Virus record (IMG/VR): IMGVR_UViG_3300009495_000004
Length of the DNA: 33,271 nt
Direction: 5' to 3' (one strand)
Source of the DNA: a virus
A model generated the notes under the pieces. It did no database searches and was not told where the DNA came from. It was given only the letters and a program-made list of their open reading frames with translations. This document shows, one piece after another, positions 8,900 to 14,512 of the stretch (positions within the stretch are counted from its first letter, which is position 1; each line of letters begins with the position of its first letter). The translations under genes and the position numbers were made by a program.

Positions 8900-9430
8900 A
8901 TGAAAGCTATAAAAATTAAAGTATCAGAAATAAAATCAAATTTAAATAATCCTCGATTAATTAAAGATCAAAAATTTAGCAAATTAGTTGAAAGCATCAA
9001 AGAATTTCCTAAAATGATGAATTTAAGACCGATAGTAGTTGATGAGAATAATGTTATATTGGGTGGCAATATGAGATTTAAAGCCTCAATAAAAGCAGGT
9101 TTTAAAGAAGTTTATGTGTTAAGGGCTGAGGATTTAACTGATAAACAAAAAAAAGAATTTATTATAAAAGACAATGTAGGTTTTGGAGAATGGGATTGGG
9201 ATATATTAGCGAATCAATTTGAAAACTCAGATCTTAACGAATGGGGTTTAGATGTTTGGGACACTAAAGATATTGATCTTGATGATTTCTTTTCTGATGA
9301 TATGGAAGATAAAGAAGAAACAAATAAAATAATTTTAGAGTATAATGAAAAAGATTATAATTTTGTAATAGATCAATTAAACAAAAAAGAGGGAAGCAAA
9401 GAAGATATTATATTTAATTTATTAAAATAG
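8900..9430 (+). CDS. ParB N-terminal (ParB/Srx-fold) domain protein
   Basis: IKVSEIKSNLNNPR...LRPIVVDENNVILGGNMRFKASIKAGF matches the ParB-like nuclease domain core (GG.hR..A). The C-terminal half is acidic. The gene lies immediately upstream of dpdA. Confidence 0.65.
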   Translation: MKAIKIKVSEIKSNLNNPRLIKDQKFSKLVESIKEFPKMMNLRPIVVDENNVILGGNMRFKASIKAGFKEVYVLRAEDLTDKQKKEFIIKDNVGFGEWDWDILANQFENSDLNEWGLDVWDTKDIDLDDFFSDDMEDKEETNKIILEYNEKDYNFVIDQLNKKEGSKEDIIFNLLK

Positions 9431-9433
9431 ATA

Positions 9434-10303
9434 ATGCAAATTTATATATGCATTCGAGGACCTTTGTCTCCTCTCTGGAAAACATTAATGAAATTATATT
9501 TATCAGGAGCAACGACAGCAGGCAATATAAAAAACTATTGGAAAGAAGCAATGAAAGTATATTTAGCAGGTGGCAATTCTGGTTATAAATGGGCAGGGGA
9601 TTACAACGAATTAATCCAAACTCATAAACCATTAATTCTTGAAAGTTACTTTTATTTAAAAGGACAAGATGAATGGATATTAAATCTTAGACCTTTTTTT
9701 AAAGATTTCTTACTTGACTCAGGAGCTTTTACTTATTTAAATGGTTTAAAAGAATCTCCTGATTGGGATCGTTATATTGAAAATTATGCTGAATTTATTA
9801 ATAAACACAAGATTGATTTATTTATTGAATTAGATATTGATAGTGTTGTAGGTATTAAAGAGGTTGAAAGATTAAGAAATAAATTAGAGAGATTAACTAA
9901 TAAAAAAAGTATTCCTGTTTGGCATAAAAGTAGAGGCTTAGATTATTGGCATAAAATGGTAAAAGAATATGATTATGTTTCTATAGGCGGTATAGTAACT
10001 AAAGAGATTAAACAAAATGAATACGATATATTTTCTTTATTATTAAGAATAGCAAGAGAGAATAATTGTAAAGTTCACGGATTAGGTTTTACAAATTTAA
10101 AAGGTTTACAAAAATATAAGTTTTATTCTGTTGACTCTACTGCTTGGGTTTATGGTAATAGAGGGGGGTTTTTATATTTATTTAAAAATAATACCCTAAC
10201 AAAAATAGAGCCAAAGGGCAAAAGATTAAAAGGAAGAAAAGGCGCATTGCATAATTTTACAGAATGGTTAAAGTTTAGCCAATACGCAGAAAACAATTTA
10301 TAA
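9434..10303 (+). CDS. dpdA: DpdA-type DNA-guanine transglycosylase (TGT superfamily)
   Basis: PLILESYFYL and FLLDSGAFTYL motifs are as in phage/bacterial DpdA. The gene sits directly upstream of queC-queD-queE-folE. The start is uncertain (ATG at 9434, 9488 or 9551). Confidence 0.7.
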   Translation: MQIYICIRGPLSPLWKTLMKLYLSGATTAGNIKNYWKEAMKVYLAGGNSGYKWAGDYNELIQTHKPLILESYFYLKGQDEWILNLRPFFKDFLLDSGAFTYLNGLKESPDWDRYIENYAEFINKHKIDLFIELDIDSVVGIKEVERLRNKLERLTNKKSIPVWHKSRGLDYWHKMVKEYDYVSIGGIVTKEIKQNEYDIFSLLLRIARENNCKVHGLGFTNLKGLQKYKFYSVDSTAWVYGNRGGFLYLFKNNTLTKIEPKGKRLKGRKGALHNFTEWLKFSQYAENNL

Positions 10304-10969
10304 ATGAAAAAAGCATTAGTATTATTATCAGGAGGGCAAGACTCAACAACTTGTTTGTATTGGGCCAATAAACATTTTGATTATGTAGAGGCCATAGGTT
10401 TTGATTATGGACAAAGCCATAAACAAGAATTAAAACAGGCTAAAAAAATATCATCAAGATTAAATATAAAATATAAAATATTTGACATAAAAGGTTTGTT
10501 AGCATCATCATCATTAACAGAACATTCAGATCATTCGAAAGCATCTTACATTGATGATAGTTTGCCGGCATCTTTTACATCAGGCAGGAATATACTATTT
10601 TTAACTATTGCAGCAAGTTATGGAGCAGAGCAAGGAATTAATGATTTAATTACAGGAGTTTGCCAAACAGATTATAGTGGCTATCCTGATTGTAGAAAAA
10701 CAACTATTGATTCATTACAAACTACTTTATCTTTAGGCTTAGGTGCAGGAGATTATAGGATCCATACACCTTTAATGTATTTAGATAAAGCAGAAACTTG
10801 GAAAATGGCAAATGATTTAAATTGTTTAGATATTATTATAAATGACACATTAACTGATTACAATGGCGATATGACAAAAAACGAATGGGGTTATGGAAAT
10901 AAAGATAATCCTGCAACAGAGCTTAGAGTAAAAGGTTTTTATATAGCTAAAGAAAAAGGTTGGATATGA
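10304..10969 (+). CDS. queC: 7-cyano-7-deazaguanine synthase QueC homologue (lacks the zinc-cysteine cluster)
   Basis: A PP-loop LLSGGQDSTTCL, GRNILFL, ITGVCQTDYSGYPDCR and HTPLMYLDKAETW align well with B. subtilis QueC. The C-terminal Cys ligands are replaced. Confidence 0.9.
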   Translation: MKKALVLLSGGQDSTTCLYWANKHFDYVEAIGFDYGQSHKQELKQAKKISSRLNIKYKIFDIKGLLASSSLTEHSDHSKASYIDDSLPASFTSGRNILFLTIAASYGAEQGINDLITGVCQTDYSGYPDCRKTTIDSLQTTLSLGLGAGDYRIHTPLMYLDKAETWKMANDLNCLDIIINDTLTDYNGDMTKNEWGYGNKDNPATELRVKGFYIAKEKGWI

Positions 10970-11373
10970 AAATTGAAAAGAAATATTATTTTTATGCAGG
11001 CCACAGAAATAAAACTGCAGGAGAAAAATGCGGGAGATTACACGGCCATACTTATGATGTTAAATGCGTATTTAATTTTGATACAATGGTAAATGGCGTT
11101 ACAATGTTATTTAGCGATATTGACAAAAAAGTAGAGCCAATAATAAAATACTATGATCATTATTTTATATTATGGAATGAGGATCCACTTTGCGATATAT
11201 TAAAATTTGCAAATGAGCCATACAGAGAAGTTCCTTTTGAATCATCTGCAGAGAATATGGCAATATGGTTATTCAATAGAATCAAAAACGAAGCTAAGAT
11301 GCCAATTGAAAGAATAGAATTAGCTGAAACAAAAACAAGTAAAATAATATATGAGCCAAAAATTAGCGATTAG
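10960..11373 (+). CDS. queD: 6-carboxy-5,6,7,8-tetrahydropterin synthase QueD
   Basis: FYAGHRN...CGRLHGHTYDV is the canonical PTPS/QueD zinc/catalytic motif. The size (137 aa) fits. Confidence 0.9.
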   Translation: MDMKIEKKYYFYAGHRNKTAGEKCGRLHGHTYDVKCVFNFDTMVNGVTMLFSDIDKKVEPIIKYYDHYFILWNEDPLCDILKFANEPYREVPFESSAENMAIWLFNRIKNEAKMPIERIELAETKTSKIIYEPKISD

Positions 11374-12082
11374 CGAGGTATTTTACTCAATCCAAGGAGA
11401 GGGTAAGACTGTTGGGATCCCAAGTGTATTTGTTAGGCTTGGAGGTTGTAATTTAATGTGCGGAGGAATGGGAACTCAATTCGATGGAGAGTTACATAAC
11501 GGAGCAGAATTTAGATGCGATACAATAGAGGTATGGATGAAAGCAACCTCAAAAAATGTTAATGAAATATTAGATAAAGAATGTATAGAAGCAATAAAAC
11601 AAGGCGCTCACATTATTTTAACAGGTGGGGAACCAACAATGCAACAAAAAGGTTTAGAAGAGTTTATGAAATACGTTTACCAAGAAGTTAATCCTTTTGC
11701 TTATTTTGAAGTAGAAACTAACGGAACAATAATGCCTAACGAATATTTATTACTTAATATTGATTTATGGAATTGTAGTCCTAAACTTTTAAATTCAGGT
11801 AATGATAGGGCAATGACATTTAAACCAGAGATTATAAAAGAACTTAATAAACATAACTCAATTTTTAAATTTGTCATAAACGATTTAAAAGAATGGAATG
11901 AGGTTAAAGAGCTTTATTATGATATAGTAGATAAAAATAAAATATATTTAATGCCTGCAGGAGAAAATCAAGATCTACTAAATGAGAATAAATTAAATGT
12001 TGTAGAGTTAGCAATAAAAAATTATGTTAATTTCACAACAAGGTTACATATAGAAATTTGGAATAAAAAAACAGGAGTTTAA
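11351..12082 (+). CDS. queE: 7-carboxy-7-deazaguanine synthase QueE (radical SAM)
   Basis: EVFYSIQGEG...SVFVRLGGCNLMC...RCDT and ILTGGEPTM are QueE hallmarks. The Cys motif is split. Confidence 0.85.
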   Translation: MSQKLAISEVFYSIQGEGKTVGIPSVFVRLGGCNLMCGGMGTQFDGELHNGAEFRCDTIEVWMKATSKNVNEILDKECIEAIKQGAHIILTGGEPTMQQKGLEEFMKYVYQEVNPFAYFEVETNGTIMPNEYLLLNIDLWNCSPKLLNSGNDRAMTFKPEIIKELNKHNSIFKFVINDLKEWNEVKELYYDIVDKNKIYLMPAGENQDLLNENKLNVVELAIKNYVNFTTRLHIEIWNKKTGV

Positions 12083-12181
12083 TTATGGAAATTATAAAAC
12101 ACATTTTAGGATTTTGCGAGCATTCGCATCACATTAACATCTTTACAATATTTATTGTATTATTATTAATCAAATTAATTT

Positions 12182-13021
12182 ATGGAAAAAAGTTACGTAA
12201 GTTGGGAGGTCGTTTATGATCGCTTAAAAACTATACTTGAGAATACACCAAAGGATAAAACATTTTTTGGAGTGCCAAGAGGAGGGCAAATAGTATCAGG
12301 AATGACAGGTAGAGCAGTTGATAAAATAGAAGATGCTGATATTATAATTGATGATCTTATTGATAGCGGTGCAACTGAATTAAAATATAAAAAATATGAC
12401 AAACCTTTTGTTGCTTTAATTGATAAAAGAATTGAGCTACAAAATCAATGGTTAGTTTTTCCTTGGGAGGTTAAAGAAAAAGATACAGATGAAACTGTAG
12501 AAGATAATATCACAAGACTCTTACAATACTTTGGAGAAGATGTTACAAGAGAGGGATTAAGAGAAACACCTAAAAGATATGTTAAATTTTTTAAAGAGTT
12601 TTTAAATCCACCTAAATGGAATTGCACATCATTTGAGGGCGAGGGCTACGATGAAATGATAATACAAAAAAATATTCCTTTTCATTCTTTATGCGAACAT
12701 CATATAGCACCTTTCTTTGGCAAGGGCCACATTGCTTATATACCAAATAAAAAGATAGTAGGATTATCTAAATTGGCAAGAACTCTTGAAACATATTCAA
12801 GGCGATTACAAAATCAAGAAAGAATAACAACTCAGGTAGCAGAGTTTCTTTGGAATGAATTAGATCCAAAGGGGGTTGCCGTATCATTAACCGCAGTGCA
12901 TATGTGTATGGAAATGAGAGGAGTAAAAAAACATAATACTCAAACAACTACAAATAAATTGTTAGGAAAATTTAAAGAGGATTCTGTTGTTAGAAATGAA
13001 TTTTTAAGCTCAATAAGATGA
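12182..13021 (+). CDS. folE: Fusion protein: N-terminal Gpt-like phosphoribosyltransferase domain plus GTP cyclohydrolase I (FolE)
   Basis: Residues 1-97 (YVSWEVVYDRL...VPRGGQIVSG...ADIIIDDLIDSGATE...WLVFPWEV) parallel E. coli Gpt (YIVTWDML...VSRGGLVPG...FIVIDDLVDTGGT...WIEQPWDM). Residues from about 100 to 279 carry SLCEHHIAPFFGKGHIAYIP...VGLSKLAR...RLQNQERIT from FolE. Confidence 0.85.
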   Translation: MEKSYVSWEVVYDRLKTILENTPKDKTFFGVPRGGQIVSGMTGRAVDKIEDADIIIDDLIDSGATELKYKKYDKPFVALIDKRIELQNQWLVFPWEVKEKDTDETVEDNITRLLQYFGEDVTREGLRETPKRYVKFFKEFLNPPKWNCTSFEGEGYDEMIIQKNIPFHSLCEHHIAPFFGKGHIAYIPNKKIVGLSKLARTLETYSRRLQNQERITTQVAEFLWNELDPKGVAVSLTAVHMCMEMRGVKKHNTQTTTNKLLGKFKEDSVVRNEFLSSIR

Positions 13022-13374
13022 ACAAAACCGAACATAGTAAAAAAGCATTATTAGAAGCATTAGAAAAGAGCTTAGGGGTTGTAACAACAGCTTGTAAAAA
13101 AACTGAGATAGGAAGAACAACTTATTACGATTGGTATAATAATGATGAGTCTTTTAAAAAGAAAGTTGATGATCTACAAAATGTTGCATTAGATTTTGCT
13201 GAGAGCCAATTGCATAAACAAATATCTGAAAACTCAACAGCTGCAACAATTTTTTATCTTAAAACAAAAGGCAAGAAAAGAGGCTATATTGAAAGACAAG
13301 AAATAACAGGAGCAGACGGAATGCCAACTAACTTTCAAATTGAGATAATTGATAAAACCGAAGATTCAGACTAA
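13018..13374 (+). CDS. terS: Terminase small subunit
   Basis: An N-terminal HTH-like GVVTTACKKTEIGRTTYYDWY and AATIFYLKTKGKKRGY are typical of small terminase proteins. ATGA overlap with folE and a 26-nt overlap with terL. Confidence 0.65.
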   Translation: MNKTEHSKKALLEALEKSLGVVTTACKKTEIGRTTYYDWYNNDESFKKKVDDLQNVALDFAESQLHKQISENSTAATIFYLKTKGKKRGYIERQEITGADGMPTNFQIEIIDKTEDSD

Positions 13375-14512
13375 TATTGTTTATAAGCATTTAGTAAATA
13401 GCAATAAAAAAATAATAGTTGAGCAGGGCGGAACTCGATCAGGAAAGACATATAATATTCTTCTTTATATAATTTTTCATTATTGTATTAATAATAGAAA
13501 TAAAATAATAACTATTTGCCGTAAAACATTTCCAAGTTTAAGAGCAACAGTATTAAGAGATTTTTTACAGATATTAAATCAACATCAAATATACAGAGAG
13601 GATTTTCATAACAAATCAAATAGCGAGTATAATCTTTTTGGCAACTTAGTTGAATTTACATCGTTAGATCAATCGCAAAAAATTAGAGGAAGAAAAAGAG
13701 ATCTACTTTTTATTAATGAGGGAAATGAATTATATATTGATGACTGGAGACAATTAATCTTTAGAACACAAGAAAGAGTTATATTAGATTTTAACCCCTC
13801 AGATGAGTATCATTGGATATATGATCAAGTTCTTACAAGAGAAGATTGCGATTTTTATAAGACAACTTATTTAGATAACCCTTTTTTAGAGGATATTATA
13901 AAACTTGAGATTGAGAGATTAAAAGAAACAGATGATCAGTATTGGCAAATTTATGGATTAGGCGAGAGAGCAACGAGCATCAATACAATTTTTAAATATG
14001 TTGAGATAAATAAAATACCAGATGATGCGAAGTTTATTAGTTATGGCGCAGATGCAGGATTTACAAATGATCCTTCAACTTTAGTTAGTGTTTATATTAA
14101 AGATTATAATTTATATATTAAAGAGCATCTATATAGAACAATGATGACAACACTTGATATACATAAAACATTTAAAGAGGTTGGGATCCAAAGACAACAG
14201 ATCTATTTTGATTCAGCAGAACCTCGCTTAATTGCTGAATTGCGTAGAATGGGTTGGAATATATTTCCAAGTTTAAAAGGCAAAGATTCAGTTAATGCCG
14301 GAATTGATTTATTAAAAAGATATAAGATTCATATTACATCTGATTCAAAAAATGCTATTCAAGAGTTTAGAAATTATAAATGGAAACAAGATAGAACAGG
14401 AAATTTAACTAACATTCCTGAGGATAAAAATAACCACATTACAGACGCAGTGCGTTACGCAACTTATTCAATACTATCAAGACCTAATTTTGGAAGATAT
14501 GCCATACAATAA
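13349..14512 (+). CDS. terL: Terminase large subunit (PBSX/XtmB-like), non-ATG (TTG) start
   Basis: Walker A EQGGTRSGKTY, Walker B-like DLLFINEGNE, and the nuclease-domain motif GADAGFTNDPS. There is no in-frame ATG upstream of Walker A, so TTG at 13349 or a nearby non-ATG codon must initiate. Confidence 0.85.
   Translation: MIKPKIQTNIVYKHLVNSNKKIIVEQGGTRSGKTYNILLYIIFHYCINNRNKIITICRKTFPSLRATVLRDFLQILNQHQIYREDFHNKSNSEYNLFGNLVEFTSLDQSQKIRGRKRDLLFINEGNELYIDDWRQLIFRTQERVILDFNPSDEYHWIYDQVLTREDCDFYKTTYLDNPFLEDIIKLEIERLKETDDQYWQIYGLGERATSINTIFKYVEINKIPDDAKFISYGADAGFTNDPSTLVSVYIKDYNLYIKEHLYRTMMTTLDIHKTFKEVGIQRQQIYFDSAEPRLIAELRRMGWNIFPSLKGKDSVNAGIDLLKRYKIHITSDSKNAIQEFRNYKWKQDRTGNLTNIPEDKNNHITDAVRYATYSILSRPNFGRYAIQ

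What the first reader, a model, noticed from the sequence alone, without database searches (positions are those of the whole stretch)
12182..13021. Gpt-like phosphoribosyltransferase domain fused to GTP cyclohydrolase I: possible guanine-recycling loop
The first 97 or so residues of the FolE ORF align block-by-block with E. coli xanthine-guanine PRTase. The blocks are YVSWEVV / YIVTWDM, VPRGGQIVSG / VSRGGLVPGA, the PRPP loop IIIDDLIDSGAT / IVIDDLVDTGGT, and WLVFPWEV / WIEQPWDM. The hood region is shortened. This domain is joined in one frame to a canonical FolE domain. DpdA-type transglycosylation releases free guanine from DNA. A guanine PRTase tethered to the first enzyme of the deazaguanine pathway could convert that excised guanine to GMP, then GTP via host kinases, and feed it back into preQ0 synthesis. 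I do not recall this fusion being described.
Basis: partly seen in the sequence, partly recalled or inferred. Interest (0 to 1): 0.65.

Follow-up and report, generated by a model that had tools for sequence, protein, structure and literature searches.

The report
Mini guanine-PRTase-like domain fused to phage FolE
A marine phage's first enzyme for making modified DNA bases (FolE) carries a stripped-down, roughly 96-residue copy of a purine-salvage enzyme at its front end; this partnership recurs in hundreds of phages, I found no paper describing it, and its role (guanine recycling or control of FolE) is still untested.

Summary
ORF 12182-13021 (+) is one 279-aa protein. It has a Gpt (xanthine-guanine PRTase)-like domain (res 1-96), an acidic linker (97-106) and an intact FolE domain (107-279).

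A family profile of the N-domain matches XGPRT structures over their whole length (E 9e-8 to 3e-6). AlphaFold2 folds the domain confidently (pLDDT 92.6), and Foldseek returns purine PRTases. The PPi loop, PRPP loop, Lys82 and Trp90 are 85-100% conserved in 101 diverse relatives.

The domain lacks about 27 residues that hold the catalytic flexible loop, and about 11 residues of the hood.

The fusion is not an artefact:
- 79 of 80 IMG/VR loci are fused.
- More than 120 protein clusters cover the full length.
- 35 cultured-phage records carry it (Pseudomonas NP1/PaMx25, Vibrio VpKK5 and others), annotated only as "GTP cyclohydrolase".
- Where it is a separate gene, it lies immediately upstream of folE.
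- It always lies among 7-deazaguanine (Que) pathway genes, with dpdA nearby wherever the flanks reach far enough.

I found no paper describing it.

Function is unresolved. My estimates are guanine + PRPP -> GMP salvage about 0.4, a ligand-sensing regulator of FolE about 0.3, and a deazapurine PRTase about 0.1. I class it as a new variant of a known kind, of moderate interest.

The parts
12182..13021 (+). Whole gene: mini-PRT-FolE fusion, 279 aa plus stop
   Evidence: Single ORF. Full-length homologues in more than 120 90%-identity clusters. 79 of 80 IMG/VR loci are fused.
12182..12469 (+). Gpt-like minimal type I PRT domain, res 1-96
   Evidence: Profile against PDB XGPRT, E 8.7e-8. AF2 pLDDT 92.6. 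Foldseek returns purine PRTases. PHROG 8995 'phosphoribosyl transferase', E 3.6e-6.
12272..12286 (+). PPi loop VPRGG (R33-G34-G35, aligned to Gpt R37-G38-G39)
   Evidence: Alignment. Conservation in 101 non-redundant relatives: R 85 (+11 K), G 97, G 101.
12341..12376 (+). PRPP loop IIIDDLIDSGAT (D57, D58, D61, S62, G63, T65, aligned to Gpt D88, D89, D92, T93, G94, T96)
   Evidence: Out of 101: D57/D58 99, D61 91 (+7 E), G63 98, T65 100.
12425..12427 (+). Lys82, aligned to Gpt Lys115 (6-oxo contact in 6-oxopurine PRTases; that role is from my own knowledge)
   Evidence: Alignment. K 89 + R 7 of 101.
12449..12469 (+). Hood remnant WLVFPWE (W90 aligned to Gpt W134, the base-stacking Trp; P94-W95-E96 aligned to P138-W139-D140)
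   Evidence: Out of 101: W90 93, P94 100, W95 93, E96 93.
12470..12499 (+). Acidic flexible linker VKEKDTDETV, res 97-106
   Evidence: pLDDT below 50 at res 100-103 in the full-length model. Lowest conservation of the three segments, mean 57%.
12500..12535 (+). Helix EDNITRLLQYFG (FolE helix 1). The same D-x3-R-x2-Q helix follows many stand-alone mini-PRTs.
   Evidence: Helix 106-116 in the model. D108, R112 and Q115 are at least 90% conserved across fused and stand-alone proteins. Tails listed.
12500..13018 (+). GTP cyclohydrolase I (FolE) domain, res 107-279
   Evidence: PF01227 E 2.5e-64. TIGR00063 above cutoff. Foldseek 1wm9 E 3e-20, TMt 0.83.
12692..12703 (+). FolE zinc/catalytic motif CEHH, res 171-174
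   Evidence: Sequence. The assignment to the zinc site is from my knowledge of FolE.
12899..12922 (+). FolE motif HMCMEMRG, res 240-247 (second zinc Cys)
   Evidence: Sequence. The assignment is from my knowledge of FolE.
8900..9430 (+). Context: ParB-like protein
   Evidence: PF02195 and PHROG 620. Detected in 49 of the 80 related loci, mainly the longer ones; short contigs lack the upstream flank.
9434..10303 (+). Context: DpdA (DNA deazaguanine transglycosylase)
   Evidence: PHROG 887, E 4.6e-50.
10304..10969 (+). Context: QueC
   Evidence: PF06508, E 8e-59.
10960..11373 (+). Context: QueD
   Evidence: PF01242, E 3.9e-23.
11351..12082 (+). Context: QueE (radical SAM)
   Evidence: PF13353 and PF04055. 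Matches QueE of relatives.
13018..14512 (+). Context: small and large terminase subunits directly downstream

Best explanation
What is shown: the gene encodes a two-domain protein. The C-terminal domain is an ordinary, intact GTP cyclohydrolase I, which opens the preQ0 pathway (GTP -> H2NTP). The N-terminal 96 residues are a minimal type I phosphoribosyltransferase domain derived from the Gpt (xanthine-guanine PRTase) lineage. It keeps the PPi loop, the Asp-Asp Mg/ribose site, the Asp aligned to the catalytic base, the 5'-phosphate loop, the Lys aligned to the 6-oxo contact and the stacking Trp. It has lost the flexible catalytic loop and part of the hood. It is a dedicated partner of phage FolE: fused to it, or encoded just upstream of it, in 7-deazaguanine DNA-modification clusters.

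What is inferred (favoured mechanism): the domain binds a 6-oxopurine (guanine) and PRPP and makes GMP. Host Gmk and Ndk would then return GMP to GTP. This would salvage the guanine that DpdA excises from DNA, and guanine from host nucleic-acid breakdown. It would top up the GTP that FolE consumes. It would also remove free guanine, which could compete with preQ0 in the DpdA exchange reaction.
For: - Whole-length profile match to XGPRT, the best family in the PDB, and to NCBIfam xanthine PRTase.
- Confident PRT-like fold.
- Near-invariant conservation, across 101 relatives under 70% identical, of residues that matter for chemistry and not only for binding: D57/D58 99/101, D61 91 (+7 E), R33-G34-G35 85-101, T65 100, K82 89, W90 93.
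- Strict linkage to the pathway. 79 of 80 IMG/VR loci are fused and 1 is adjacent, with QueD/QueE around them and DpdA wherever the upstream flank is long enough. All 5 MAG loci lie in Que clusters. In every stand-alone locus that extends downstream (L003, L006, L009) the gene lies between queD/queE and folE; L005 is a fusion broken by an in-frame TGA, and L008 is cut at the contig end.
- The fusion is conserved from Bacteroidota-type marine phages to Queuovirinae of Pseudomonas and Vibrio.
- Some relatives are fused instead to other nucleotide or deazapurine enzymes: a PTPS-like domain, a second full PRTase, a MazG-like tail.
- PRTases are proven members of deazapurine gene clusters (TubE; PMC6112128).
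- DpdA is a base-exchange enzyme that replaces guanine (PMC6884629).
Against: - The ~27-residue hairpin carrying the flexible loop (with the Ser-Tyr dipeptide in Gpt/HGPRT) is absent in the whole family. In characterised 6-oxopurine PRTases this loop closes over the transition state (PMC11089518). At about 96 residues this would be far smaller than any known active PRTase.
- The domain scores far below the Pfam and NCBIfam cutoffs.
- Hosts normally have their own Hpt/Gpt.
- GMP is not FolE's substrate, so tethering gives no direct channelling.
- The domain is tied to FolE, not to DpdA.
- No biochemical data exist for any member.
Confidence: 0.4

Rival explanations
1. Ligand-sensing regulatory domain. 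The mini-PRT no longer catalyses. It binds a guanine nucleotide, PRPP or (p)ppGpp in the old active site and tunes FolE activity to the purine pool, so that the phage does not drain GTP needed for replication. This would be analogous to PRT-fold regulators (PurR, PyrR) and to N-terminal/GFRP control of animal GTP cyclohydrolase I (these comparisons are from my own knowledge).
For: - The catalytic flexible loop is lost while every ligand-contact residue is retained.
- The domain is always physically or genetically joined to FolE.
- Many stand-alone forms keep a FolE-helix-1-like D-x3-R-x2-Q helix. The separate FolE next to them has a different helix 1, which suggests a docking element.
- A PRT-like protein with bound ppGpp is among the fold matches (5vog).
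Against: - D61, aligned to the catalytic base, and the Mg-binding Asp pair are conserved as strongly as in enzymes.
- Fusions of the same domain to other enzymes fit an enzyme as well as a sensor.
- No inter-domain contact could be examined (full-length pTM 0.57, coordinates not available).
Confidence: 0.3
2. 7-deazapurine phosphoribosyltransferase. Like TubE (CDG + PRPP) or the proposed ToyH, the domain would attach CDG, preQ0 or another 7-deazaguanine base to PRPP. That would give a nucleotide route to modified DNA, or a way to hold or detoxify the base.
For: - TubE is an experimentally shown CDG-PRPP transferase encoded with GCH I, QueD and QueE homologues (PMC6112128).
- The mini-PRT always lies inside Que clusters.
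- One relative is fused to a PTPS/QueD-like domain.
Against: - The clusters encode DpdA, which uses the free base, so a PRTase would compete for it.
- The domain is Gpt-like. Hpt structures score far worse (E about 0.08 and weaker). No TubE or ToyH sequence was available to compare.
- The conserved Asp aligned to the N7-contacting base (D61) has no partner in a 7-deaza base (inference).
Confidence: 0.1
3. Catalytically dead structural or assembly appendage. A relic PRT fold kept only for the solubility, oligomerisation or localisation of FolE.
For: Loss of the loop and hood segments. The domain evolves faster than FolE (mean pairwise identity 67% vs 85%).
Against: A relic would not keep the PPi loop, PRPP loop, Lys and Trp at 85-100% across sequences that are otherwise 40-50% identical. 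It would also not persist as a separate gene.
Confidence: 0.07
4. Assembly or annotation artefact. There are really two genes, joined here by a sequencing error.
For: One related contig has an in-frame TGA inside the fusion (L005). The PaMx25 record annotates two genes.
Against: - The identical protein occurs on 13 contigs, and full-length homologues form more than 120 clusters.
- 79 of 80 independent viral contigs have one frame.
- PaMx25 in fact has an intact 297-aa ORF; the split is a mis-annotation.
Confidence: 0.01

Closest known systems
E. coli / Yersinia xanthine-guanine phosphoribosyltransferase (Gpt, XGPRT; PDB 1a95, 1nul, 6kp5)
   Same: Best sequence-profile match over the whole domain. 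Same order of elements: N-terminal strand with Trp, PPi loop RGG, PRPP loop DDxxD[ST]GxT, Lys, and W...PW[ED] hood motif.
   Different: 96 vs 152 residues. It lacks about 27 residues (beta-hairpin plus flexible loop with Ser-Tyr) and about 11 hood residues. It scores 19 bits against a 138-bit family cutoff. It is fused to, or paired with, FolE. It is effectively phage-restricted: only 5 pattern-limited hits in about 185,000 species genomes, all on MAG contigs with Que genes.
GTP cyclohydrolase I FolE (T. thermophilus 1wm9, human GCH1, E. coli 1gtp)
   Same: The C-terminal 173 residues are a canonical FolE by sequence, motifs and predicted fold.
   Different: Carries an N-terminal nucleotide-enzyme-like domain. 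Animal GCH1 is instead regulated by a separate protein (GFRP) and a short N-peptide (my own knowledge).
TubE / ToyH, PRTases of tubercidin and toyocamycin gene clusters
   Same: A purine-type PRTase encoded together with GCH I, QueD and QueE homologues. TubE is a proven CDG-PRPP transferase (PMC6112128).
   Different: These are full-length (~194 aa), separate genes in Streptomyces antibiotic pathways that have no DpdA.
Gat-QueC fusion of phage 9g-type clusters
   Same: Another accessory domain fused to a preQ0-pathway enzyme in phage deazaguanine clusters. Its presence changes the pathway output (PMC6884629).
   Different: Different enzyme and different domain. The Gat-QueC role (dG+ formation) is established; the mini-PRT role is not.
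PHROG 8995 'phosphoribosyl transferase'
   Same: The only phage-family hit for the N-domain (E 3.6e-6, res 54-98).
   Different: The match covers only the C-terminal half of the domain. The family name is an annotation, not a tested function.

Membership tests
Type I phosphoribosyltransferase fold (PF00156 superfamily) | PRPP-binding motif: two acidic residues, then [ST]-G-x-T, which binds the 5'-phosphate | tested here: met
   IIIDDLIDSGAT at res 54-65, aligned to Gpt 85-96. D57/D58 99/101, G63 98, T65 100.
Type I phosphoribosyltransferase fold (PF00156 superfamily) | PPi loop after the first core strand | tested here: met
   VPRGG at res 31-35, aligned to Gpt SRGG 36-39. G35 invariant.
Type I phosphoribosyltransferase fold (PF00156 superfamily) | Alpha/beta core fold resembling solved PRTases | tested here: met
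   AF2 pLDDT 92.6. Top Foldseek hits are HGXPRT and XGHPRT, prob 1.00, TMq 0.53-0.59, E 2-3e-3. Similarity is only moderate because of the deletions.
Type I phosphoribosyltransferase fold (PF00156 superfamily) | Flexible catalytic loop (loop II) that closes over the active site | tested here: not met
   A gap of about 27 residues opposite Gpt 51-78 in the profile alignment. In the model only res 42-53 link helix 34-41 to strand 54-60.
Type I phosphoribosyltransferase fold (PF00156 superfamily) | Pfam model hit above the gathering score | tested here: not met
   No PF00156 hit at E <= 1 for the domain or the whole protein.
Type I phosphoribosyltransferase fold (PF00156 superfamily) | Base + PRPP -> nucleoside monophosphate activity | not testable with these tools
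   Needs an enzyme assay.
Xanthine-guanine PRTase (Gpt; NCBIfam NF006613) | Score at or above the curated cutoff (138 bits) | tested here: not met
   19.2 bits, E 6.7e-4.
Xanthine-guanine PRTase (Gpt; NCBIfam NF006613) | 6-oxopurine contacts: Lys115 and stacking Trp134 (roles from my own knowledge) | tested here: met
   K82 and W90 align to them and are 89-93% conserved.
Xanthine-guanine PRTase (Gpt; NCBIfam NF006613) | Complete hood subdomain | tested here: not met
   About 11 residues are missing opposite Gpt ~120-130.
GTP cyclohydrolase I, FolE (PF01227 / TIGR00063) | Model hits above curated cutoffs | tested here: met
   PF01227 216 bits vs 27. TIGR00063 201.8 vs 181.6, NF006826 210 vs 162.
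GTP cyclohydrolase I, FolE (PF01227 / TIGR00063) | Zinc/catalytic Cys-x-His-His and second Cys motifs | tested here: met
   CEHH at 171-174 and HMCMEMRG at 240-247 are present. The assignment to the zinc site is from my knowledge of FolE.
GTP cyclohydrolase I, FolE (PF01227 / TIGR00063) | T-fold monomer structure | tested here: met
   Foldseek 1wm9 E 3.3e-20, TMt 0.83, 44% identity.
Deazapurine PRTases (TubE / ToyH) | Sequence relatedness and CDG/preQ0 specificity | not tested
Only the literature description was read.

The most novel reading that the evidence does not exclude
The ~96-residue domain is the smallest active purine PRTase known. It works without its own flexible loop because the FolE decamer, or the conserved D-x3-R-x2-Q helix that always follows it, closes the active site. 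It would then be active only when docked on FolE. This would form a guanine -> GMP -> GTP -> preQ0 recycling unit that also pulls the DpdA exchange reaction forward by removing the excised guanine.
Probability: 0.2. Interest if true: 0.8.

Novelty: new variant of a known kind. Interest (0 to 1): 0.55.

Why it matters
[quoted passage not shown] This work points to one more conserved component. It has been hidden inside genes annotated simply as "GTP cyclohydrolase", or mis-annotated as in PaMx25.

If the domain is an enzyme, it closes a guanine loop and explains how phages sustain a pathway that costs one GTP per modified base. It would also redefine the minimal PRTase catalytic unit.

If it is a sensor, it would be the first allosteric control element known for a phage base-modification pathway, to my knowledge.

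Either answer is directly testable in tractable cultured phages (NP1/PaMx25 on PAO1, VpKK5-like Vibrio phages) and in E. coli K-12.

Tried and rejected
- Single-sequence Pfam search of the N-domain found nothing. Single-sequence PDB and NCBIfam hits were only marginal. A family profile was needed.
- tblastn with this window's N-domain found only 7 Vibrio phage records. The NP1 N-domain as query found 35 records.
- The search for related loci with the 48-sequence alignment A1 failed because no stretch was conserved enough. The 10-sequence alignment A3 worked.
- Foldseek with the full-length model returned only FolE structures, so the N-domain was modelled separately.
- Frameshift or two-gene artefact: rejected.
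- The 44-aa ORF at 12085-12219, which overlaps the start codon: it is not conserved in relatives, where queE abuts the fusion gene directly. I do not treat it as part of the system.
- A regex count of the post-PRT helix motif was too strict to be useful. I relied on the alignment columns and the listed tails instead.
- Model coordinates are not exposed, so contacts between the domain and the helix or FolE could not be measured.
- Ten literature searches and six papers read found no description of the domain. Subscription-only papers were not searchable.
Full report
**1. What is there**

Window 12182-13021 (+) is one uninterrupted ORF of 279 codons. Residues 107-278 are a canonical GTP cyclohydrolase I:
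- Pfam PF01227, E 2.5e-64.
- TIGR00063 folE, 201.8 bits against a 181.6-bit cutoff.
- The predicted structure superposes on solved FolE structures (1wm9 E 3e-20, TMt 0.83, 44% identity).
- The CEHH (171-174) and HMCMEMRG (240-247) motifs are present.

The window is a complete 33.3-kb uncultivated virus record. The gene sits in this order: ParB-like (8900), DpdA (9434), QueC (10304), QueD (10960), QueE (11351), this gene, TerS (13018), TerL (13349).

**2. The N-terminal domain**

Single-sequence searches give only hints:
- No Pfam hit.
- PHROG 8995 'phosphoribosyl transferase', E 3.6e-6.
- PDB purine PRTases, E 0.02-0.2.
- NCBIfam xanthine PRTase, E 6.7e-4, far below its cutoff.

A search of 1.8 billion representative proteins with residues 1-101 found 398 relatives at E <= 1e-3. 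A 48-sequence profile of the domain (A1) matches XGPRT structures from end to end (6kp5 E 8.7e-8; E. coli 1a95 E 2.7e-6). This beats every other PDB family; Hpt scores E about 0.08.

The residue mapping is:
- R33-G34-G35 to Gpt R37-G38-G39 (PPi loop).
- D57-D58 to D88-D89.
- D61 to D92.
- S62-G63-x-T65 to T93-G94-G95-T96 (5'-phosphate loop).
- K82 to K115.
- W90 to W134.
- P94-W95-E96 to P138-W139-D140.

Among 101 relatives under 70% identical, these positions are 85-100% conserved, while overall identity is about 40-50%. AlphaFold2 models the domain alone at pLDDT 92.6, pTM 0.83. Foldseek's best PDB hits are purine PRTases (S. solfataricus HGXPRT, H. pylori XGHPRT; prob 1.00, TMq 0.53-0.59).

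So the likeness to Gpt is real and not chance.

**3.

The alignment shows two deletions relative to Gpt. The other removes about 27 residues (Gpt ~51-78). That is the beta-hairpin carrying the flexible catalytic loop and its Ser-Tyr dipeptide.

In characterised 6-oxopurine PRTases this large mobile loop sequesters the active site from solvent at the transition state (PMC11089518). The whole family lacks it. Membership in the PRT fold is therefore supported, but a defining catalytic element is absent.

**4. The fusion is genuine, old and widespread**

- The identical protein occurs on 13 contigs. More than 120 clusters (at 90% identity) cover the full length at 73-100% identity, mostly from marine metagenomes.
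- IMG/VR holds 244 confirmed relatives. Of the best 80 loci, 79 have the two domains in one frame and 1 has them as adjacent genes. QueD, QueE and TerL surround them, and DpdA too wherever the contig reaches far enough upstream.
- In about 185,000 species-representative genomes, a pattern-limited scan found only five loci. All are MAG contigs carrying Que genes. Four show the mini-PRT fused to FolE, and in the fifth (L091) only the mini-PRT was detected. The domain is effectively phage-restricted.
- The same architecture exists in 35 cultured-phage records. These include Pseudomonas phages NP1 (gp36, 297 aa), PaMx25, JG012 and Quinobequin-P09, Vibrio phage VpKK5 (gp32, 300 aa), and Stenotrophomonas, Xanthomonas, Sphingomonas and Variovorax phages. 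Where the records are annotated, the gene is named only as GTP cyclohydrolase.
- In PaMx25 the intact 297-aa ORF is mis-annotated as a wrong-frame hypothetical protein plus a truncated folE.
- About 392 phage records have a FolE match, so roughly a tenth carry the detectable N-domain. None of the 35 is an Escherichia phage.

**5. Stand-alone forms**

Of 180 sequences examined, 61 are mini-PRT + FolE and 119 have the mini-PRT without FolE. Many of the latter are 100-165 aa, and some are contig-end fragments.

In each locus that extends downstream, the separate gene lies between queD/queE and a separate folE:
- L003, overlapping folE by 14 nt.
- L006.
- L009.
- L005 is really a fusion interrupted by an in-frame TGA.
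- L008 is cut at the contig end.

Many stand-alone proteins keep, after an acidic linker, a helix with the pattern D-x3-R-x2-Q. This corresponds to FolE helix 1 of the fusion (EDNITRLLQ). The separate FolE next to them has a different helix 1. This suggests the helix belongs to the mini-PRT module and may be the element that couples it to FolE.

A few relatives are fused to other partners:
- A PTPS/QueD-like domain (P0128, a weak Pfam hit at E 0.033).
- A second full-length PF00156 PRTase (P0236).
- DUF6378 (P0245).
- A MazG-like tail, judged by eye (P0230).
- One fusion has an intein inside FolE (P0174).

**6. How it most likely works**

Shown: a Gpt-derived domain, with its ligand site under strong purifying selection, is tied to the first enzyme of the phage preQ0 pathway.

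Inferred, in order of preference:

(a) Guanine (6-oxopurine) + PRPP -> GMP salvage, about 0.4. This fits the conservation of chemistry-relevant residues: the Asp pair, D61 (aligned to the N7-contacting catalytic Asp, D137 in human HGPRT) and the PPi loop. It fits the enzyme-type fusion partners. It fits the logic that DpdA releases one guanine for each preQ0 inserted, while FolE spends one GTP for each preQ0 made. Removing guanine might also favour the forward exchange. Against it are the missing flexible loop, the very small size, the lack of direct channelling (GMP is not GTP) and the usual presence of host Hpt/Gpt.

(b) A non-catalytic sensor of GMP, GTP, PRPP or (p)ppGpp that tunes FolE, about 0.3. 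This fits the loss of the loop with retention of the binding site, and the constant physical or genetic coupling to FolE. A PRT-like protein with bound ppGpp is among the fold matches (5vog).

(c) A deazapurine PRTase like TubE, which is a proven CDG-PRPP transferase encoded with GCH I, QueD and QueE homologues (PMC6112128), about 0.1. This is disfavoured. DpdA needs the free base, the domain is Gpt-like, and the conserved D61 has no N7 partner in a 7-deaza base.

(d) An inert appendage, about 0.07.

(e) An artefact, about 0.01.

The remaining ~0.1 is left for functions not considered here.

**7. Comparison with the known, and novelty**

The FolE half is an ordinary member of its family. The N-half is a new, minimal variant of the type I PRT fold, closest to Gpt. 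It fails the family cutoffs and lacks the flexible loop, so I do not file it as a Gpt.

The main papers on phage deazaguanine pathways list FolE without comment on an extra domain (PMC6884629, PMC10516641, PMC10484667). Ten full-text searches found no description of a PRTase-FolE fusion or of guanine recycling in these phages. Databases recognise it only partly: PHROG 8995, and one NCBI record named 'phosphoribosyltransferase, partial'. The searchable library excludes most subscription journals, so prior mention cannot be ruled out.

**8. Limits**

- There is no biochemical evidence for any member.
- Inter-domain geometry is uncertain (full-length pTM 0.57, linker pLDDT below 50).
- The collection scans were pattern-limited, so the counts are lower bounds.

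**Verdict**

This is a new variant of a known kind: of moderate interest, and readily testable in cultured phages and E. coli K-12.

Noticed in passing
L096 (Pseudomonas phage PaMx25, NC_041953.1) 1464-2394: The record annotates a wrong-frame 124-aa 'hypothetical protein' (gp38) plus a truncated 191-aa folE (gp37). An intact 297-aa mini-PRT-FolE ORF (1501-2394) actually exists there.
   Followed up: yes
window 12085-12219: A 44-aa hydrophobic ORF lies in a spacer of about 100 nt between queE and the fusion gene and overlaps its start by 38 nt. In most relatives queE abuts the fusion gene directly and no such ORF exists. It is probably lineage-specific or non-coding.
   Followed up: partly
L005 6001-6816: A related contig has an in-frame TGA at the Gly of the QYxGED motif inside the fusion (QYL*EDPTREGL). 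This could be a sequencing error, a pseudogene or a recoded stop.
   Followed up: partly
L011-L090 (IMG/VR relatives): 53 of the 80 related clusters show DpdA, QueD, QueE or the fusion but no detectable QueC with the QueC queries used; about 37 of these are long enough to include DpdA, QueD and QueE. L003 has a 116-aa and a 318-aa gene in that position. They may make a different deazaguanine (for example via a DpdL-like decarboxylase) or carry a divergent QueC.
   Followed up: no
P0174 (422 aa, metagenomic relative): A mini-PRT-FolE fusion carries an intein (Intein_splicing and Hint domains) inserted in the FolE domain.
   Followed up: no
P0128, P0230, P0236, P0245 (metagenomic relatives): The same mini-PRT domain is fused to other partners: a PTPS/QueD-like domain (weak Pfam hit), a MazG-like tail (judged by eye), a second full-length PF00156 PRTase, and DUF6378.
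   Followed up: partly
window 8900-9430 and most related loci: A ParB-N-domain protein directly precedes DpdA here. It is detected in 49 of the 80 related loci, mainly the longer ones. It looks like a conserved member of the module.
   Followed up: partly
L003 6383-7030, L006 6537-7235, L009 5704-6396: Where the mini-PRT is a separate gene, the neighbouring FolE is a different subtype with its own long N-terminal extension. In L006 that extension has a CxxC...CxxC zinc-ribbon-like start.
   Followed up: no
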